From NCBI GenBank assembly GCA_964016885.1, contig OZ024740.1:145514001-145578000 (forward strand): a DNA stretch of 64,000 nucleotides. The letters are read 5' to 3'. The DNA comes from Eledone cirrhosa. Lineage: Eukaryota. Under the pieces are notes generated by a model. It was not told where the DNA came from. It did no database searches and saw only the letters and a program-made list of their open reading frames with translations. Positions 2,535 through 59,435 of this stretch are shown piece after piece. Position 1 is the first letter of the stretch. Each line of letters starts with the position of its first letter. Position numbers and translations under genes: made by a program.

Positions 2535-2550
2535 GCTATATATATATATA

Positions 2551-3531
2551 AGAAGGAAGTACAGCATAATCGAAGCTCTGGTTGCAGCCAAGCTAACGAA
2601 TGCAGTCGGGATGTGTACTCAATAAGGAATTTTACCTTAGAGTTATAACATTACGTTTAGACAGCTATGCAAATTGAAGACAGCGACCGATAAGCGAGCG
2701 GCTAGGACCAGAACAACGAAAAAAACCGACTCAGGAAAATTTTGACATACCTGGACCATCGTGGAGATATTATATATCTCCGCTAGGGTGGTGGCTTGGC
2801 AGTATCGGTAGAGGGTCGGACGCCATGCTTTCCAGCATAGTTACGTCCCTTTGCGGTCTGAGTTCAAATCCCACCGAGGTTAACTTTGCCTTTCATCCTT
2901 ACGGGGTCGATAAAATAAAGTACCAGTAATGCACTGGGTAATTGATGGCCTTGTGCCAAAAGTAGAAACAATTATATATCTCCGCTAGGTTTCTGTAAAT
3001 CCGAAATCAACAAAATCCATTTGCAGGGGCCTGCAAGTTATTGGCTTTGGAAGATAGAACAGTGGAATTTACTTCGTCAACAAGTTTTTGTTCTGCCGCC
3101 ACCGGTTGTAAGAACTAGCAGTAAACACTGCTAGTAGTCACGTGGTTTATCCGAAGGGAGGGTACCCCCGGTTTTGGCGGTCAAATTCAAAATTTGAACA
3201 AAGGATTTAAATCCTTTACACAAACCGAATGAAAGCTCTCTACCAGATGTTATTAAACAAACATAAACAATTAACCAATCAATAGAATTGTCTAATTAAA
3301 TTAATCAATTATTCATTAAGTTTAGGAGATAATAATATAAGAAAGAAGTAAGGCATAATCGAAGCTCTGGTTGCAGCCAAGCTAACGAATGCAGTCGGAA
3401 TGTGCTGCTAAAGCACTCAATAAGGAATTTTACCTTAGAGTTATAACATTACGTTTAGACAGCTATGCAAATTGAAGCCAGCGACCGAAAAGCGAGCCGC
3501 TAGGACCAGAACAACAAAAAAAGACTCTCTC
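2551..3531 (-). mobile_element. Non-coding element with ~175-bp terminal direct repeat and degenerate hammerhead (retrozyme/PLE-like), interrupted by a SINE
   Basis: 2551-2725 is repeated at 3339-3522; (TA)n on both sides. Minus strand reads TTGACGA-aGTAAATTC...GGATTTACa-GAAA-CCT...AGG-TA once the SINE is removed. Confidence 0.45.
2788..2970 (+). mobile_element. tRNA-derived SINE (short ~185-bp family)
   Basis: A-box-like TGGCAGTATCGG and B-box GAGTTCAAATCCC; flanking duplication ATTATATATCTCCGCTAGG (2769-2787 / 2971-2989); several copies in the window. Confidence 0.9.
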
Positions 3532-3623
3532 TATATATATATATATATAAATCAAATTAGAATTTGATTTTTCGCTCTCATATCATAGCAGATTATATAA
3601 ATGTATTTATGAGTTTTATATCG

Positions 3624-45524: not shown

Positions 45525-45576
<52 letters not shown>

Positions 45577-45643
45577 AAGGTTTAGTAAATAATGAAAAAG
45601 TTTCAAAATAAATTTTAAAAAATTGACTTTACCCACTATAGTT

Positions 45644-45727
45644 ACCTTTACCGATCGGTTTCGAATCCCAAAAATAAAACGTAGGCCATACGGCCTTCGT
45701 TGCAAAGAGAGATTCTCGTCAGAAGGT
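45644..45727 (-). ncRNA. Type I hammerhead ribozyme
   Basis: Reverse complement of 46582-46665. Confidence 0.85.
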
Positions 45728-46581
45728 TCTTTTCATTCAAAGAATATAAAATTCCTGAATTTAAATCACAAACTAGCGCTATCAAAGACTGTTCCTGGGA
45801 TGAGAGTGGATGATGTAGAACAGGTTTATCAAGGGCCGTAGTAAAGATAGAGGCAAAAGGAGGTAGGTCAAACTAGCCACCGCTGTTATCAGCAGCAGTC
45901 GGAATGACCCGGTTTGTTCTCAACGTATGTGGAGGTAGTAGTAATATGAAATACGTCCTTTCACGCACAAGGCGCCAAGGTACGCATGTATTGTCCAACC
46001 AAGTGCCAGTGTGGTTCAATGGCGGGTTAATAAATTAACGAGCCAGAACAAATATAAACAAGGTTTAGTAAATAATGAAAAAGTTTCAAAATAAATTTTA
46101 AAAAATTGACTTTACCCACTATAGTTGGGCCTACGTATGGCCTACGTTTTATTTTTGGGATTCGAAACCGATCGGTAAAGGTAACTATAGTGGGTAAAGT
46201 CAATTTTTTAAAATTTATTTTGAAACTTTTTCATTATTTACTAAACCTTGTTTATATTTGTTCTGGCTCGTTAATTTATTAACCCGCCATTGAACCACAC
46301 TGGCACTTGGTTGGACAATACATGCGTACCTTGGCGCCTTGTGCGTGAAAGGCCGTATTTCATATTACTACTACCTCCACATACGTTGAGAACAAACCGG
46401 GTCATTCCGACTGCTGCTGATAACAGCGGTGGCTAGTTTGACCTACCTCCTTTTGCCTCTATCTTTACTACGGCCCTTGATAAACCTGTTCTACATCATC
46501 CACTCTCATCCCAGGAACAGTCTTTGATAGCGCTAGTTTGTGATTTAAATTCAGGAATTTTATATTCTTTGAATGAAAAGA

Positions 46582-46665
46582 ACCTTCTGACGAGAATCTC
46601 TCTTTGCAACGAAGGCCGTATGGCCTACGTTTTATTTTTGGGATTCGAAACCGATCGGTAAAGGT
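46582..46665 (+). ncRNA. Type I hammerhead ribozyme
   Basis: ACCTT-CTGACGA-GAATCTC..GGGATTC-GAAA-CCGATCGG-TA/AAGGT: complete core, stems I and II, palindromic stem III, GUA cleavage after 46660. Confidence 0.88.
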
Positions 46666-47064
46666 AACTATAGTGGGTAAAGTCAATTTTTTAAAATTTA
46701 TTTTGAAACTTTTTCATTATTTACTAAACCTTGTTTATATTTGTTCTGGCTCGTTAATTTATTAACCCGCCATTGAACCACACTGGCACTTGGTTGGACA
46801 ATACATGCGTACCTTGGCGCCTTGTGCGTGAAAGGACGTATTTCATATTACTACTACCTCCACATACGTTGAGAACAAACCGGGTCATTCCGACTGCTGC
46901 TGATAACAGCGGTGGCTAGTTTGACCTACCTCCTTTTGCCTCTATCTTTACTACGGCCCTTGATAAACCTGTTCTACATCATCCACTCTCATCCCAGGAA
47001 CAGTCTTTGATAGCGCTAGTTTGTGATTTAAATTCAGGAATTTTATATTCTTTGAATGAAAAGA

Positions 47065-47148
47065 ACCTTCTGACGAGAATCTCTCTTTGCAACGAAGGCC
47101 GTATGGCCTACGTTTTATTTTTGGGATTCGAAACCGATCGGTAAAGGT
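47065..47148 (+). ncRNA. Type I hammerhead ribozyme
   Basis: Identical motif 483 bp downstream; cleavage after 47143. Confidence 0.88.
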
Positions 47149-47321
47149 AACTATAGTGGGTAAAGTCAATTTTTTAAAATTTATTTTGAAACTTTTTCAT
47201 TATTTACTAAACCTTGTTTATATTTGTTCTGGCTCGTTAATTTATTAACCCGCCATTGAACCACACTGGCACTTGGTTGGACAATACATGCGTACCTTGG
47301 CGCCTTGTGCGTGAAAGGACG

Positions 47322-47368
<47 letters not shown>

Positions 47369-47373
<5 letters not shown>

Positions 47374-48010
47374 ATTAGAGTTAAAACTCAATTGGAACCC
47401 TGTAACTATTAAGCTCCAAGTATAAAAATACTGAGCCGATTAATAATATATTTGCCAACGTTCACACAGAAAGATGAATTTGTCACCTCGTGCTTCGCTA
47501 GTCAAACGTGGTAAGCGTGTATTGAATAGAAATAACAGTCCAACACACACAACTTAATAAGCTCAACTTTTATACTTGGAGCTTAATAGTTACAGGGTTC
47601 CAATTGAGTTTTAACTCTAATTTTCATATATATTTCTGCTCCCTCACAAGTTGAGCTTATTAAGTTGCGTGTGTTGGACTGTTATTTCTATTCAATACAC
47701 GCTTACCACGTTTGACTAGCGAAGCACGAGGTGACAAATTCATCTTTCTGTGTGAACGTTGGCAAATAGTGTTTGTTGCATTTAATCTGATTCTCTCGCT
47801 GATGATACCTAGGATTATCTGTTACAAACACACTCAGGGCGAAACAGATTAGGGATAATCTGTCCGAGAGATATAATGGTTATTGAGGCGGTTTGTATAA
47901 TAATATATTTTTATTTTATCATTCTGTCTGCTTCTTGGTTAAATATTTCAAACAAATGTGGTTTTTCAACCCTTGTAATTTTAGACACACGGCTTACTGT
48001 GTTTCTTACT
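47369..48010 (+). mobile_element. Non-coding PLE-like/retrozyme element with interleaved inverted 5' segments
   Basis: 47369-47428 inverted at 47568-47627; 47450-47569 inverted at 47648-47767; hammerhead inside; (TA)n flanks. Confidence 0.65.
47792..47871 (+). ncRNA. Type I hammerhead ribozyme
   Basis: TCTCTCG-CTGATGA-...-GAAA-CAGATTA(GGGA)TAATCTG-TC/CGAGAGA: perfect 7-bp stems I and III, GUC site; stem II weak. Confidence 0.78.
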
Positions 48011-49624: not shown

Positions 49625-50560
49625 GGAACTCCCACTGTCATCACCTCCATCTCTCTCGCCCTCCCCATCTATCTATATTATGAGTAAATGGGGTCCCACA
49701 TGCTGGCCGCCCCACGGCCCCGGCGGATAGAATGGAGAAGGCGTTTCCCAGGATGATGATAAAGGAGATGCGCTGGAAGAGCCATTCCATCTTCCGAGGC
49801 TCCACTACGGCTAGCCAGCTCAGCGCCTATGTAGGTAAGTAGGGAGGTATTCCTAGAGCCAAGGACACCAGAAGTCTCCACTGCTTGGAGCACGACCACA
49901 AACCTGTCGGAGAGCGACCGGTACTTGAAGAGTTTGCCCTCCTCAGCCCGAAGTGCAGCAGAACCTGGATTAATCTCAGACTGCACCAGGCTGTGGCTGG
50001 AGAATTTGTCGCTGCAAATGGCATCCCAGACGAGGAGTTTGCCACCGCAGAACGCGAAGATGGTCATACCGTCTGGCCTTTTGTCGTCCCCTCGGTCCAG
50101 CCTCACCTGCTCGAGCTGGGAGGGGAAGCCTGCATTTTCCAAGCCATGCTTTATGACCTCGTTGAGAGCAGCATGGCGTGGAAGGTGGCCGGCACAGTAT
50201 CAACAGGAAAGCGGGTGGAGGCCGAAAGAGTTCACGATGGATCCACAGCGACATTTGTGTGGCCCGCAGGTCCTGAGGCCAAGCCTCAGAGAAACCCCGA
50301 TGCGCAAGTTATCGTTGTCCAGCTGTGTGCCAGTGGAGAAGGAGGGTAAGGCATGGAGCCAGCCACCGCTGTGTGGTTTTGCGGCATCGCGAAAACATGC
50401 AAGGCGGTGCTGGTCGAGCTGGCGCGCTAGCCTGTCTGAAGCCATGTTGCTCTGGATGGCATCCCAAATAATCTGTGGGAACTTGACGTCAGCAGGTGGA
50501 GAAGGAGGAGAACGTCTACTGGGCTGAGTCCAAGCCAGTTCCACGTCTCGCAGGCGACCT
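49625..50560 (-). mobile_element. CRE-clade RLE LINE 3' fragment
   Basis: HSGGWLHALP, LRIGVSLRLG..CRCG..GLHPLSC, DDKRPDGMT..GKLLVWD, AVETSG. Confidence 0.78.
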
Positions 50561-51138: not shown

Positions 51139-51278
51139 AATATTTAACTCCGTAATAGCACCACCAACTACAAAAACAAAGACGGTTGAACTGCTTTACG
51201 TTGAGTACTCTCTATATTATTGCATTACGATTGACCATACGGAATAGACCAGCTCTATACAGTGGTGAACCTCAAACC

Positions 51279-53138: not shown

Positions 53139-53175
<37 letters not shown>

Positions 53176-53334
53176 CAAGCCGTTTCGACGGCTATTTCTA
53201 GACGTCGAAACGTCGAAACGGCTTGAGCTCTGCCGTCGGGAGTCATACTTGTTCCTAATACCCACTCTACTACACTAAGTATTGAGTACTTTGGTGGGTT
53301 ATGGTCCATCTGGTTCCTTACCACAATTCCTTCG

Positions 53335-53404
<70 letters not shown>

Positions 53405-53407
<3 letters not shown>

Positions 53408-53748
53408 AGTCACTTCTGAATGGCGCCAGTTTGTAATTTGAACTCGGGAATTTTATATTTTCCGAGAGAGAAAACTCTTCTGACGATGATCTCTTTCTCA
53501 ATAGAAATCCGCTTGGATTATCTATTTGTTTGGGATCTGAAACCGCGGTAAGGGCACATATAGTAAGTACAGTGAATTTTTTGGAATTTAATTTATTATT
53601 TTTTAAGATATTTTCTGTGTTTACACTCCCTTGATTTTATATGTTCTGGCTTGTTAATTTATTAACATGCCATTGAACCACACTGGCATGCGGTTGGACT
53701 ATACTTGTGTCCCTGTGTGTATTAATTACATGTAGGAACACATACTTT

Positions 53749-53750: not shown

Positions 53751-53846
<96 letters not shown>

Positions 53847-54302
53847 CGAAGGAAATGTGGTAAGGAACCAGGTGGACCATAACGCACCAAAGTACTCAAT
53901 ACTTAGGGTAGTAGAGTGGGTAATAGGAACGAGTAGGACCCCGACGGCTGAGCTCAAGCCGTTTCGACGGCTAATTCTGGACTAAATGAAAATTTTTATC
54001 CTGGTATATGAATAGCCGAGCTACTCATCCATATATGGTAAAAGTGATTGTCACAAGGATTGGTCAAAAGTTTGTTGTTGAGACACATAATTCTATCATG
54101 GCAATTTGTGGAAGGAAAGGGTAGGTGAACCTGCCAGTATAAGAAAGAGGGAGAGGGAGTGGAGGAAACCCAGTCGTGCGTTGATAGTGCCAACTACAGC
54201 AGGATCCTAAGGGCAGGAGGTCAAGCAAGTATACTAGGGAGGGGGAGGGGGAGGAAGTCGAAACAATAAGTAAATCAATATAGAAGAATACCAAGAATGT
54301 TA

Positions 54303-54393
<91 letters not shown>

Positions 54394-54505
54394 TAAAACA
54401 TGTCTATAGAATCACCAGATAAAATATATACCGTTTCCTCTCCCAATTAGCATAATTAACCATATAAAAAATCAATTAGACCAAGCTATAAGAATAAAAG
54501 CTCCT

Positions 54506-54931
54506 ATGAAGAAATCTCTAGATATCCAACTGGCCCACTCAGGTCCTTCTCTACGCGGACAGCTAACCAAAAGACACTCCACCAGACATGACAACTGCTG
54601 CAGGCTAGCCAACTGCCCCATCAACGACACAGACCTATGCCACCAGGCTTACGTCGTATACAGACTAGAGTGTGACAAATGCAGCAACTTCTACGTAGGT
54701 AGCACCACCAGACCACTCCACATAAGAATAAAAGAACACCTCAATACTAACGCTTCCTCATTTAAGAAACACCTAGTTAAATGCAAAAACACCGACAAAA
54801 CCATAACAGTTAGGATAGAAACTAAGGAAAGAAACCTCGGCAATCTTAGAATTAAGGAAGCACTAATTATAGACAAAATACAACCACCAATAAATAATAG
54901 ACTAGAACTCAACACCCAATTTATAACTTGA
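54506..54931 (+). pseudogene. Penelope C-terminal GIY-YIG endonuclease fragment
   Basis: CCRLANCP..LC, VVYRLECDKCSNFYVGSTTRPLHIRIKEH, LRIKEALII..QPPIN. Confidence 0.85.
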
Positions 54932-54971
54932 TAGAGCATCTAGTCTCATATTTACACACACACCCACCCAC

Positions 54972-55020
<49 letters not shown>

Positions 55021-55400
55021 TACACCTCCACTTATTCTCTCTCACACACACACATACACACACAAAGACCAGTTCTAACACGAGATAACATCTATCCCCC
55101 ACATTTACGTATAGACATATCTTCTCACGCTCACACACACACACTCACATACTTACACCTTCATGCATTCTCCCACACACTTAAACAGGCATGTACAAAA
55201 AAAAAACCTTTTAAAGGGAGACTACTCTTTATCCACCTAACCTAACTCTTTGACATTAGAGATAGAACAGATACTCTATACCATTTCCTTTCAGCATGAC
55301 TTGGCAAGCTATTTAGAACACTTGTTTAACCGCTTTACTTCCCTCCGAAGAAGAGATATTATCTCGAAAGTTAAGGACATTTAAATAAATCTAGGACATT
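54515..55400 (+). mobile_element. Penelope-like element 3' fragment (GIY-YIG plus 3'UTR)
   Basis: GIY-YIG ORF; (CA)n UTR; decayed minimal hammerhead CCGAAGA-aGAGAT..ATCTC-GAAA at ~55340-55378. Confidence 0.8.
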
Positions 55401-55462
55401 TAAATAAATCTAATTATAGTATATGTCCATAGAATCCTATGGATTCTATGGACATATATTAT

Positions 55463-56322
55463 AATTAAATAATCAGAGCAATATACTATAAAGTATGTCC
55501 ATAGAATCCTATGGATTCTATGGACATATTTTGTAGTATATTGCTCTGATTATTTAATTTATTAATTCATCATTGAACCACATCGTGAATGGTTGCCAAA
55601 ACATATATATCTCTGACTTTTTCTAGTTGTGTATATGTAAATCTTTATATTTAATAATCTCCCATAAGGTTGAGATGCAATTTGGGCAATATTGGGCTGC
55701 GCTTTCTAGCAACCAGCCCACTCGCCGTAAGCAACCAATCACATTATTTCTGACTTGACCACTGCCACGTCACAGTTCTTAGCCATTTTGAATTCGTTTC
55801 TGGTGAAAATCACTTAAGAAAATTCTTTGTCCAAATGAGTTTGTTTCCTGATGAGTTCGAAGCTCGAGATTTTATCCTTAATAGGATATTTCCAAAAGCG
55901 AACGAAACTCTAGGGTAGAAACGTAATCCTGGTATGTATATATGCATTTTTTCTTGTAACTTTAATTTTATACCTAATTGTGTATGGTTGACGGTATACT
56001 TAATCGATTTCCACGTGCTGTTGAAATGTTGGGTAAATATTCTATGGCGGTTGGTCGCGAAGAGATTGCTGTCGTTTATTTATCTACTATTTCTTCATAA
56101 GTGCCTTTTAATCTTATAGCCTAGTCTAATTGATTTTTTGTGTGGTTAATTATGCTAATTGGGAGAGGAAATGGTGTATATATATTATCAAATGATTCTA
56201 TGGACATACTTTATAGTATATTGCTCTGATTATTTAATTTATTAATTCATCATTGAGCCACATCGTGAATGTTTGCCAAAACATATATATCTGTGACTTT
56301 GTCTAGTTGTGTATATGTAAAT

Positions 56323-56330: not shown

Positions 56331-57470
<1,140 letters not shown>

Positions 57471-57474
57471 CACG

Positions 57475-58235
57475 TTTATAGACATAGTCGAACAGGTGCC
57501 ATTACTTAGACCTTGGATGCATCCATGTTACATGATCGCCTTTGTATTGGAATTGTGTGCTGGAAATAAACAGCTTAAATTCGGTGCATAGTTCAAGTAA
57601 GAGTAAGCCATTGTCGTTTACCTTACCCACACCAAATCGTCCAATCCTTGCCAACCCTAGCATTGAAGTCACCAAGAAGGATAATCATGTCCGAATTGGA
57701 AATAGATCGCAATAAATTTTGGAGATCTTAATAAAACCGGTTCTTGTCATCCTCAGTATTCACGATGGTAGGTGCATAGATGCTGATCAGGGAAGCAGTG
57801 TCATGATTCAGTCGGTGATACCACGGGGAAACTCACACAGCTCCGAAACTATGGTGTTATGGATTGTGAATCAAATATCTGCTTCTCTTGTATCTTCAAG
57901 CTTTCTACCTTTCGAAAAAAGGTATAACCTCCAGCAGGTTCTTGTATTTGGCCATCTTCAGCAAGCCGAGTCTCTGAGACAGAATATTTTTGGATCCCTC
58001 AGGATTGTCAATGAGTGTCCTCACATTCCAAAATATATTTAGTTTTATATTGAACCTTTTAGGCATTTTGTTGTTTCCAGCACATGGTGGACATCAACCA
58101 GCCGCGCTATACTGGCTAGAAGGATTACAGAAGCAATCAATATTTGGGTAACCTTTTCTAGACCCCGTCCAGATTTACTGGTGAGCAGTGCTATCCCTAA
58201 AAAGGCTACTCAGTCACCTTTGGAGCAACCGAAAA
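57475..58235 (-). mobile_element. RTE (BovB-like) 5'/APE fragment, decayed
   Basis: IGRFGVGKVNDNGLLLLELCTE..WHLFDYV read on the minus strand. Confidence 0.65.
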
Positions 58236-58239
58236 CGTA

Positions 58240-59435
58240 AACTGGGAGGTGAAGGCTTAACATCAGTCCAGACAGCATTCTAATGTCGCATCATACCCCT
58301 CCGACAACATCTACGAACTACCAACCGTAGGAGCCCATCTAGTGAACAAGCCTGTCTACACGAGACAGATAACGACATGAGATTTGGGAAGGAGCTCCAT
58401 GAGAAGTTCTCCCTGCATGATAACCAAAACTTCACACCCAGGGAAATTGCACATCAATACAGAATACCGTAATGAATCCTTGGATGAAAAGCAGCATGTT
58501 TATCAGCAAAAAATCATGCATGGCTATGCTGCCAGGAAGCTGCAAAGTGAGAGTAATATAGATAAACAAATTAGTCTATCTTAGACCAACAACTGCCATA
58601 TTGGCTCTCACTTTGAGGGGTATACTTTTGCATGAAATAACTACAAAATACCTAATTCACAAAAGATAGTGATGCAGGCAAAAGAGCTAGATGTGATAAC
58701 AGATGCAGACTCTGCGGAATTAACATCGAAAGTGTCACCCATACCATAAGCAGCTGTCCAAAGATGTCATCACGGTACTACCTGTTTATGAGGCATGATG
58801 TACTGACCAAAACACTATACAATACAATTCGTAAAAAGGATAGCTCCGACAATAAATATATAAAAAGCTACAGCATGAAGAAGGTGGAATGTTCCAGTCA
58901 AAACCCCAATAAAATGCAAACACAACAAACCAAACATAGCGGTATGGTCAGAGAAAAGAAGGCTTGCACAGTAGTAAAAGTCAGCTTCCCGGCAGATATC
59001 AATATAATGGAAAAGGAGAACATTTATGCTGGACTAATGAGGAATCTGCAGACACTCCACTCTGACTATACTTTTAGATTTATACCTGTGGTCATTGGGG
59101 CTCTTGGATACGTTACTAACTGCATCAGTACAAATCTTGAGAAGCTGGGCTTCACAAAACCAGAAAGCGCGCAGCTAGTTAGGAGGTTGCAAGTACAGTC
59201 CATTAGCGAAACTGTAAAATTATGTGAAACCTTTCAGAAATTTTGCATGTAGTAACTGCATATACACATGTATAGACACAGAAACGTATGCACCTGTACA
59301 CATATGACTCAGAACATGCAGATCCACCTATACAATAACATCCATAGCTGTATACACACGCACATTTACCTAGTTGATGTTGTCTAAATTCTAATGAAAG
59401 AGTCTTGTGTCTATGTTAGAAACTGGATCTCTTTC
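58240..59435 (+). mobile_element. Older, decayed R4/Dong family A 3' fragment
   Basis: Collinear with 28170-29390. Confidence 0.82.

What the first reader, a model, noticed from the sequence alone, without database searches (positions are those of the whole stretch)
46752..46800. Conserved pseudoknot-like motif downstream of the ribozyme in three families
Seen: TTAATTTATTAA-[stem]-TTGAACCACA-[stem']-..GGTTG occurs in the 483-bp unit (stem GCCA/TGGC), at ~53653-53698 (ATGCCA/TGGCAT) and at ~55553-55596 and ~56233-56275 (ATTCAT/GTGAAT), although the 681-bp family is otherwise dissimilar. The loop AACC can pair with the downstream GGTT, forming an H-type pseudoknot. An analogous fold (GTAA/TTAC; loop AGACACA with TGTGTTT) ends the 47.4-48.0 kb element. 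Several inserts terminate shortly 3' of the motif. Inference: an undescribed cis-acting RNA element, possibly the RT recognition or priming signal of the helper PLE.
Basis: inference. Interest (0 to 1): 0.72.

Follow-up and report, generated by a model that had tools for sequence, protein, structure and literature searches.

The report
Twin hairpins mark retrozyme copying starts
The shared motif is real, but it is best read as the right half of a small predicted bulged hairpin, not a pseudoknot; it comes in pairs in these non-coding ribozyme repeats and in protein-coding Hydra-type Penelope jumping genes of marine animals, and inserted copies end a few letters before one hairpin or the other, so the pair likely tells the helper enzyme where to start copying.

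Summary
The motif is real (1,920 exact genome matches, control 0), but the pseudoknot is not the best reading. It has three both-side changes between the 483- and 681-bp families. A second, shorter copy lies 114 nt downstream. Insertions into (TA)n end just before one or the other: 18 of 19 ends in a sample picked without the motif, and 6 of 6 two-armed insertions use one site per arm. The stretch between the sites is the Penelope 'tail'. The same pair sits in an intact, young Hydra-clade element of this genome, and two motif halves occur in 28 of 39 Hydra-clade loci from marine metagenomes. Likely function: a protein-binding signal that sets two internal reverse-transcription starts and lets these retrozymes use Hydra enzymes. 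Binding and the exact helper family are untested. Five literature searches did not find it. This scan reported the twin hairpin before on other DNA of this genome (13 notes).

The parts
46743..46778 (+). Hairpin H1 of the 483-bp unit: lower stem GTTC/GAAC, TT bulge on the 3' side, upper stem TGGC/GCCA, apical A/U stem
   Evidence: further copies 46260-46295, 47226-47261 (+) and 46014-46049 (-)
46736..46741 (+). End site 1: TA-like stretch just 5' of H1 (junction blurred by match to the TA target); used by the left, inverted arm, which ends at about 45574
46784..46795 (+).
46803..46842 (+). Variable tail hairpin before site 2 (approximate limits)
   Evidence: predicted
46845..46854 (+). End site 2: TA-like stretch just 5' of H2; used by the right arm, which ends at about 47328
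46857..46874 (+). Hairpin H2: CTC/GAG stem, C-G pair, TT bulge; 114 nt after H1
   Evidence: searches (offset; fold, slightly different register), coordinates read
46583..46664 (+). Type I hammerhead motif of the 483-bp unit, long loop II, palindromic stem III
   Evidence: descriptor, coordinates read; no Rfam match at gathering score
45574..47328 (.). Whole two-armed 483-bp insertion (inverted arm 45574-46126, direct arm 46134-47328) between two TA tracts
53643..53678 (+). H1 of the 53.4-53.75 kb element (483-related subfamily; hammerhead about 53476-53554; ends at site 2)
55543..55578 (+). H1 of the first 681-bp unit; this copy has a C-A mismatch in the lower stem
56223..56258 (+). H1 of the second 681-bp unit: GCTC/GAGC, TGAT/ATCA (family norm)
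55658..55675 (+). H2 of the 681-bp unit: TCTC/GAGA, CC/GG, TT bulge
55844..55921 (+). Hammerhead motif of the 681-bp unit
   Evidence: coordinates read
47413..47436 (-). H1 of the 467-bp family (47.4-48.0 kb element), in the tail of its inverted arm, which ends at site 2 (about 47370)
47638..47656 (+). H2 of the 467-bp family; the direct arm ends at site 1 (about 48009); hammerhead about 47793-47870
   Evidence: coordinates read

Best explanation
The motif is the 3' half of the first of two predicted bulged hairpins that bracket the Penelope 'tail', insertions end a few bases 5' of one or the other, and the hairpins likely are the RNA sites that a Hydra-clade Penelope protein binds to start reverse transcription. 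Shown: the 483, 681 and 467-bp units are non-coding tandem repeats with a hammerhead motif, inserted in (TA)n; each has order hammerhead, TA-like site 1, H1, tail, TA-like site 2, H2; an intact coding Hydra element has the same order with its ORF behind H2. Inferred: the protein nicks (TA)n, binds a hairpin on a more-than-unit RNA, and primes at the TA-like stretch just 5' of it, so the bound hairpin is not copied. Starting at site 1 gives a tail-less end, starting at site 2 gives an end that carries H1 and the tail. Using one site on each nicked strand, perhaps as a protein dimer, would give the two-armed insertions with a tail on one side. The retrozymes would keep the two hairpins to be moved in trans.
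For: Ends: 18 of 19 ends of 13 insertions picked by hammerhead-side sequence fall at site 1 (11) or site 2 (7); 6 of 6 two-armed insertions use one of each. In motif- or unit-picked loci, TA-flanked ends at the two sites: 31 of 31 (483), 71 of 73 (681), 36 of 36 (467), 30 of 30 (Hydra); one site per arm in 7 of 8, 13 of 16, 11 of 11, 4 of 4. Structure: RNAalifold consensus of 43 distinct copies is H1; 95.9% of cells paired, 3 pairs with both-side change, slid controls 14-48%. A hairpin descriptor gives 168 hits in 0.96 Mb of fetched loci against 1-3 in three shuffles, with 13 different upper stems. Coding partner: 832-aa ORF, 4,199-bp tandem unit, copies 99% identical, Hydra motifs. Other animals: 35 hairpins in 11,635 nt upstream of Hydra ORFs against 13 in 82,182 coding nt; two halves in 28 of 39 loci; the unselected fifth pair is C-G 36, T-A 14, T-G 5, mismatch 6 of 61; 8 of 11 informative ends stop 0-4 nt before a hairpin. 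Published: a Poseidon protein starts at two internal RNA sites that bound the tail (PMC11167929).
Against: No binding, priming or probing data. The three both-side changes between 483 and 681 may be three events on one branch. The eighth pair is T-T in 24 of 68 681-type copies, H2 is short and varies in register, and upper pairs 6-8 hold in only 35, 38 and 25 of 61 foreign halves. Single-sequence folds are not unusually stable (z -0.5 to -0.7 for the 483 and 681 tails). 9 of 39 foreign loci show one half and 2 none; 3 of 11 informative foreign ends do not fit. The retrozyme units show no sequence likeness to the Hydra element's non-coding part, so the helper is assigned by motif only. The window's 681 copies sit directly against fragments of a non-Hydra element. 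The two-site result was shown for Poseidon, not Hydra.
Confidence: 0.7

Rival explanations
1. The hairpins act as DNA: the endonuclease or a resolution step recognises them in cDNA or in the donor copy and trims or cuts just 5' of them.
For: PMC11167929 reports that the Drosophila Penelope tail was needed for endonuclease recognition of plasmids. Pairs in the conserved stems are nearly all Watson-Crick, which suits DNA as well.
Against: In the only in vitro system, the tail ends are reverse-transcription starts on RNA. Strand asymmetry (bulge always on the 3' side of the RNA sense, end always 5' of it) fits a bound template.
Confidence: 0.13
2. The reader's H-type pseudoknot is the working fold, or a second fold that switches H1 off in the 483/681 lineage so that site 2 is used.
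For: Both helices can form in most copies: 483-type P1 35-38 of 40 and P2 33-39 of 40; 681-type three P1 pairs 69-74 of 74 and P2 70-74 of 74; one P1 pair changes C-G to T-A between the families. GGTTG is kept in both. In the 53.6-kb copy P2 rivals the lower stem (0.34 against 0.32-0.45). ViennaRNA cannot score pseudoknots.
Against: It uses the same bases as H1. H1's upper stem outweighs P1 in 8 of 9 sequences, the exception being the mutant 55554 copy. P1 has 3 pairs in register in 681 types; the A-to-G loop change gives G-U in P2 (68 of 74) but a C-G pair in H1. Some copies were picked with GGYTG in the pattern, which favours P2. By eye, four other families with H1, the coding Hydra element among them, have no 4-bp downstream partner.
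Confidence: 0.09
3. The hairpins mark RNA processing or pause points, so that transcripts themselves end near sites 1 and 2 and are copied from their 3' ends as in LINEs.
For: PMC11167929 notes RNA-seq read ends at the two sites. Fixed ends would also result.
Against: A signal 3' of the end must be on the RNA when the site is chosen; in vitro the Poseidon product did not change size with longer 3' ends.
Confidence: 0.05
4. The shared block is leftover common ancestry without function.
For: 483 and 681 units share layout and spacing and probably an ancestor.
Against: Flanks are at background identity while the block is 78% identical; the motif recurs twice per element in distant animals and tracks the ends.
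Confidence: 0.03

Closest known systems
Animal non-LTR retrozymes (PMC7229834, passages; bioRxiv 10.64898/2026.07.22.740005, parts 1-3 of 5, through Discussion)
   Same: Non-coding tandem repeats with a type I hammerhead in each unit, proposed to be moved by Penelope-like elements.
   Different: Units of 467-681 bp with a long loop II. The text I read names no shared cis signal, no fixed end sites and no helper clade by motif. Cleavage and circular RNA are untested here.
Hydra clade of C-terminal EN+ Penelope-like elements (PMC8557442, section 11, passages, supplement rows)
   Same: The coding element L236 has the clade's protein motifs, a hammerhead-type motif and TA targets; the paper also describes inverted 5' copies and a tail at one end.
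   Different: Unit 4.2 kb (paper: generally under 3 kb); tails 80-166 nt (paper: 30-40). No tail hairpins in the parts read.
Internal initiation and tail of Poseidon from Anolis (PMC11167929, parts 1-2 of 4)
   Same: Two internal start sites downstream of the hammerhead bound the tail; AT-rich target; binding site proposed near the starts; dimer predicted.
   Different: Other clade; starts lie in an AC-rich stem loop inside the ORF; no duplicated, covarying hairpin is defined. Its supplementary figures were not visible as text.
3' stem-loops shared by LINE-SINE pairs (recalled, no call)
   Same: A small RNA stem shared by a coding element and its non-coding passengers serves enzyme recognition.
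   Different: There the stem is single and is copied into the insert; here it is doubled and lies beyond the start it appears to set.

Membership tests
Animal non-LTR retrozyme | Type I hammerhead motif in each tandem unit | tested here: met
   Descriptor hits in 483, 681-type and 467 units; Rfam gives no match at gathering score
Animal non-LTR retrozyme | Non-coding, dispersed monomers to tandem multimers | tested here: met
   no match to the Hydra protein below E 0.16
Animal non-LTR retrozyme | Self-cleavage and circular RNA | not testable with these tools
   No RNA holder listed; needs bench work
Penelope-type insertion structure | Partial tandem, inverted 5' arm, tail at one end only | tested here: met
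Hydra-clade PLE (coding partner L236) | RT plus C-terminal GIY-YIG-type endonuclease in one ORF | tested here: met
   832-aa ORF; YRDD in 28 of 30 aligned proteins; best fold match TERT, E 1.5e-8, weak TM 0.28. Endonuclease read by eye; this protein was not scanned against Pfam
Hydra-clade PLE (coding partner L236) | DKT, RWK, CxCX5C linker, CxxC and CxH motifs | tested here: met
   DKT 26 of 30; RWK 15 and RWR 7 of 30 (L236 has RWR); CxCX5C 25, CxxC 30, CxH 30 of 30; definition
Hydra-clade PLE (coding partner L236) | No CCHH motif in the endonuclease | tested here: met
   By eye: one cysteine in the core; the scripted count stopped on an error
Hydra-clade PLE (coding partner L236) | Placement in the clade on an RT tree with reference sequences | not tested
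H-type pseudoknot (reader) | Two interleaved helices kept in register with compensating changes across families | tested here: not met
   Register shifts, 3-pair P1 in 681 types, one both-side change; no 4-bp partner by eye in four other families
RT initiation signal | Protein binding and start-site dependence on pairing | not testable with these tools
   Only positional and comparative support

The most novel reading that the evidence does not exclude
Hydra-clade Penelope enzymes read a doubled RNA hairpin that lies outside the copied region, one hairpin per nicked DNA strand, which explains the one-sided tail; and several unrelated-looking retrozyme families, with thousands of copies in this genome, parasitise that clade by carrying the two hairpins, so a retrozyme's helper can be read from its tail. 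In the 483/681 lineage a competing pseudoknot may switch the first hairpin off.
Probability: 0.55. Interest if true: 0.8.

Novelty: new variant of a known kind. Interest (0 to 1): 0.62.

Why it matters
How Penelope-like reverse transcriptases, the closest relatives of telomerase, choose their template and start site is open, and so is the identity of the enzyme that moves animal retrozymes. A small doubled motif that predicts both insertion ends gives direct mutational tests for both questions, with a young intact Hydra element and its passengers in one genome. A short portable signal for insertion into (TA)n would also be of use for RNA-templated gene insertion.

Tried and rejected
Rfam scan of the window: 0 matches. 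Helper search among other Penelope families: family A, Neptune-type families and one Nematis-type locus showed no H1-type descriptor hit in their 3' ends; that descriptor needs four upper pairs and would miss H2-type stems, the output was cut, and a dedicated control on these tails was not run. The open frame at 54410-54520 is not part of family A: it is an inverted 681-type fragment. A branch-point or splice reading of the A/U block was dropped: it forms the apical stem and varies freely between families. Hairpin rows had an index error and were redone; only its pseudoknot rows and Fisher value are used. MAFFT alignment of 18 family representatives misaligned the short-loop families and was not counted. 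A scripted test of the pseudoknot in other families was not run; that point rests on reading by eye. Two copies of Hydra residues 1-470: no answer, score 0.00, neither for nor against. Sequence look-ups in earlier findings found nothing. Supplement search of PMC11167929 gave no text.

Full report
Observation. The pattern occurs six times in the window against none expected and 1,920 times in the 3.0-Gb genome with a reversed control of 0. The 483-bp and 53.4-kb elements are 73% identical over 298 nt, so they are one group; the 483 and 681 units match only over about 47 nt, 31 of 40 bases across the motif against 4-8 of 20 in flanking blocks. All units carry a type I hammerhead motif upstream, have no Rfam match and lie in (TA)n.

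Two fixed ends. Reading flanks showed that copies stop either about 65 nt after the motif or just before it. BLAST mapping gave TA-flanked ends at the two sites in 31 of 31 (483 query), 71 of 73 (681), 36 of 36 (467) and 30 of 30 (Hydra); ends without a TA run and away from both sites numbered 16, 5, 1 and 4, and I take most of the 16 to be alignments stopping in diverged subfamilies. These loci were picked by the motif or whole unit, so I repeated the test on 30 loci picked by the hammerhead side only: 13 insertions, the window's own included, 19 ends, 11 at site 1, 7 at site 2, 1 elsewhere; all 6 insertions with both arms seen use one site per arm. The sites are TA-like, so junctions are blurred by several bases. 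This is the tail-at-one-end structure of PMC8557442 (passages), and PMC11167929 shows for a Poseidon element that tail ends are two internal reverse-transcription starts.

The fold. A diverged family in locus L191 showed that the motif's GCCA and GAAC pair leftward. H1 spans 46743-46778. In 33 of 37 483-type copies (4 dropped, 5' side missing or shifted) its eight pairs hold in 31-33; in 68 of 77 681-type copies seven pairs hold in 63-67 and the eighth in 43. On 43 distinct copies, a subset of the 80 distinct rows found, RNAalifold returns H1, with 95.9% of cells paired, three pairs changed on both sides and slid controls at 14-48%; these are probably three events on one branch. The pseudoknot helices can also form in most copies, with one both-side change, but P1 has three pairs in register in 681 types and the loop A-to-G change leaves a G-U in 68 of 74. 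Pair probabilities favour H1's upper stem over P1 in 8 of 9 sequences; the program cannot score pseudoknots. Tail folds are not unusually stable for 483 and 681.

More families. A descriptor for this hairpin behind an AT-rich stretch gave 168 hits in 958,790 bases against 1, 3 and 2 in shuffles; 141 come from the four families I had fetched, and the 18 rows show 13 different upper stems, chosen for pairing. A shorter hairpin with the same CTC/GAG stem and TT bulge follows site 2, at 114, 115, 80 and 166 nt from H1 in the four mapped families.

The coding partner. One hairpin family proved to be a young element (39 of 40 best copies 99% identical, the other being the query) with an endonuclease upstream. 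A 4,199-bp tandem holds an 832-aa ORF that begins behind H2. Its motifs match the Hydra definition, and its model (pLDDT 82.6) best matches TERT, weakly. Other Penelope families sampled showed no H1-type hit in their ends, an incomplete control. The retrozyme units share no detectable sequence with this element, so the clade is inferred from the motif and the helper family is not named.

Other animals. An alignment of this protein with 29 of 100 homologues fetched 78 metagenome loci. In 43 of them with upstream sequence, hairpins ran at 3.0 per kb before the ORF against 0.16 in coding DNA. Of 39 loci with at least 110 nt upstream, 28 have two 3' halves, 9 one and 2 none; the list of accepted halves was written. 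For 61 of 65 halves with a 5' half in range, the fifth pair, not used in selection, is C-G 36, T-A 14, T-G 5, mismatch 6 (Fisher p 2.7e-9, not corrected for kinship). Of 21 loci with a downstream copy, 9 stop at the contig end, 1 runs on, 8 stop 0-4 nt before a hairpin and 3 do not fit (partly read by eye). Host species are not known.

Mechanism. Shown: order of parts, two end sites, one per arm, conserved doubled hairpin shared with Hydra elements. Inferred: the protein binds a hairpin and primes from nicked (TA)n at the TA-like stretch 5' of it; one site per strand gives the tailed and tail-less arms; retrozymes keep the pair to be moved in trans. A dimer is borrowed from a prediction for Poseidon. 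Confidence 0.7; rivals are a DNA-level signal (0.13), the pseudoknot as working or switching fold (0.09), RNA processing (0.05) and ancestry alone (0.03).

Novelty. Retrozymes, Hydra elements, tails and internal initiation are published. Five searches found no description of this hairpin pair or of a pseudoknot here. I saw parts 1-2 of PMC11167929, section 11, passages and supplement rows of PMC8557442, parts 1-3 of the 2026 preprint, and passages of PMC7229834, PMC4209133 and PMC6765202; figures, the preprint's supplements and subscription journals were not visible. What this window adds is the correction of the pseudoknot and the link to three non-coding families. New variant of a known kind; interest 0.62.

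Noticed in passing
window 54392-55412: An inverted 681-type fragment ending at site 1 (54392-54520) is joined without a TA run to a 5'-truncated copy of another Penelope family (GIY-YIG, 54521-54931), whose 3' part is cut before its own end and joined to 681 units after a 19-bp duplication; possibly template switching between different element RNAs.
   Followed up: partly
window 56385-57500 (-): Neptune-type Penelope fragment with a degenerate hammerhead-like end, back to back with the 681 insertion across a TA tract.
   Followed up: partly
window 2540-3550 (-): Another repeat family with an H1 of the ACTC/GAGT type at 2617-2643 and 3415-3441.
   Followed up: partly
window 53175-53335 and 53846-53985: Small inverted elements in TA tracts with an ACTC/GAGT hairpin near 53265-53288 and a palindromic core.
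   Followed up: no
window 51147-51205: H1-like stem closing a loop of about 45 nt, after a TA-flanked inverted end; read by eye.
   Followed up: no
window 46665-46690, 53555-53580, 55922-55945: GTAAGT/GTATGT-like sequence followed by a T-rich tract just after the hammerhead in several families; could be an intron remnant.
   Followed up: no
L063-L075, L161-L210, L005, L138: Family A, several Neptune-type families and others also have two fixed ends and a 40-60 nt tail, without this hairpin by the descriptor; they may use signals of their own.
   Followed up: partly
window 49678-50559 (-) and 58656-59252 (+): Broken reading frames resembling C-terminal parts of non-LTR retrotransposons (recalled likeness; no Pfam match for the two frames scanned).
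   Followed up: no
G000:C1:82116310-82120243: An inverted copy followed by eight tandem 483-bp units, a longer array of the same family.
   Followed up: no
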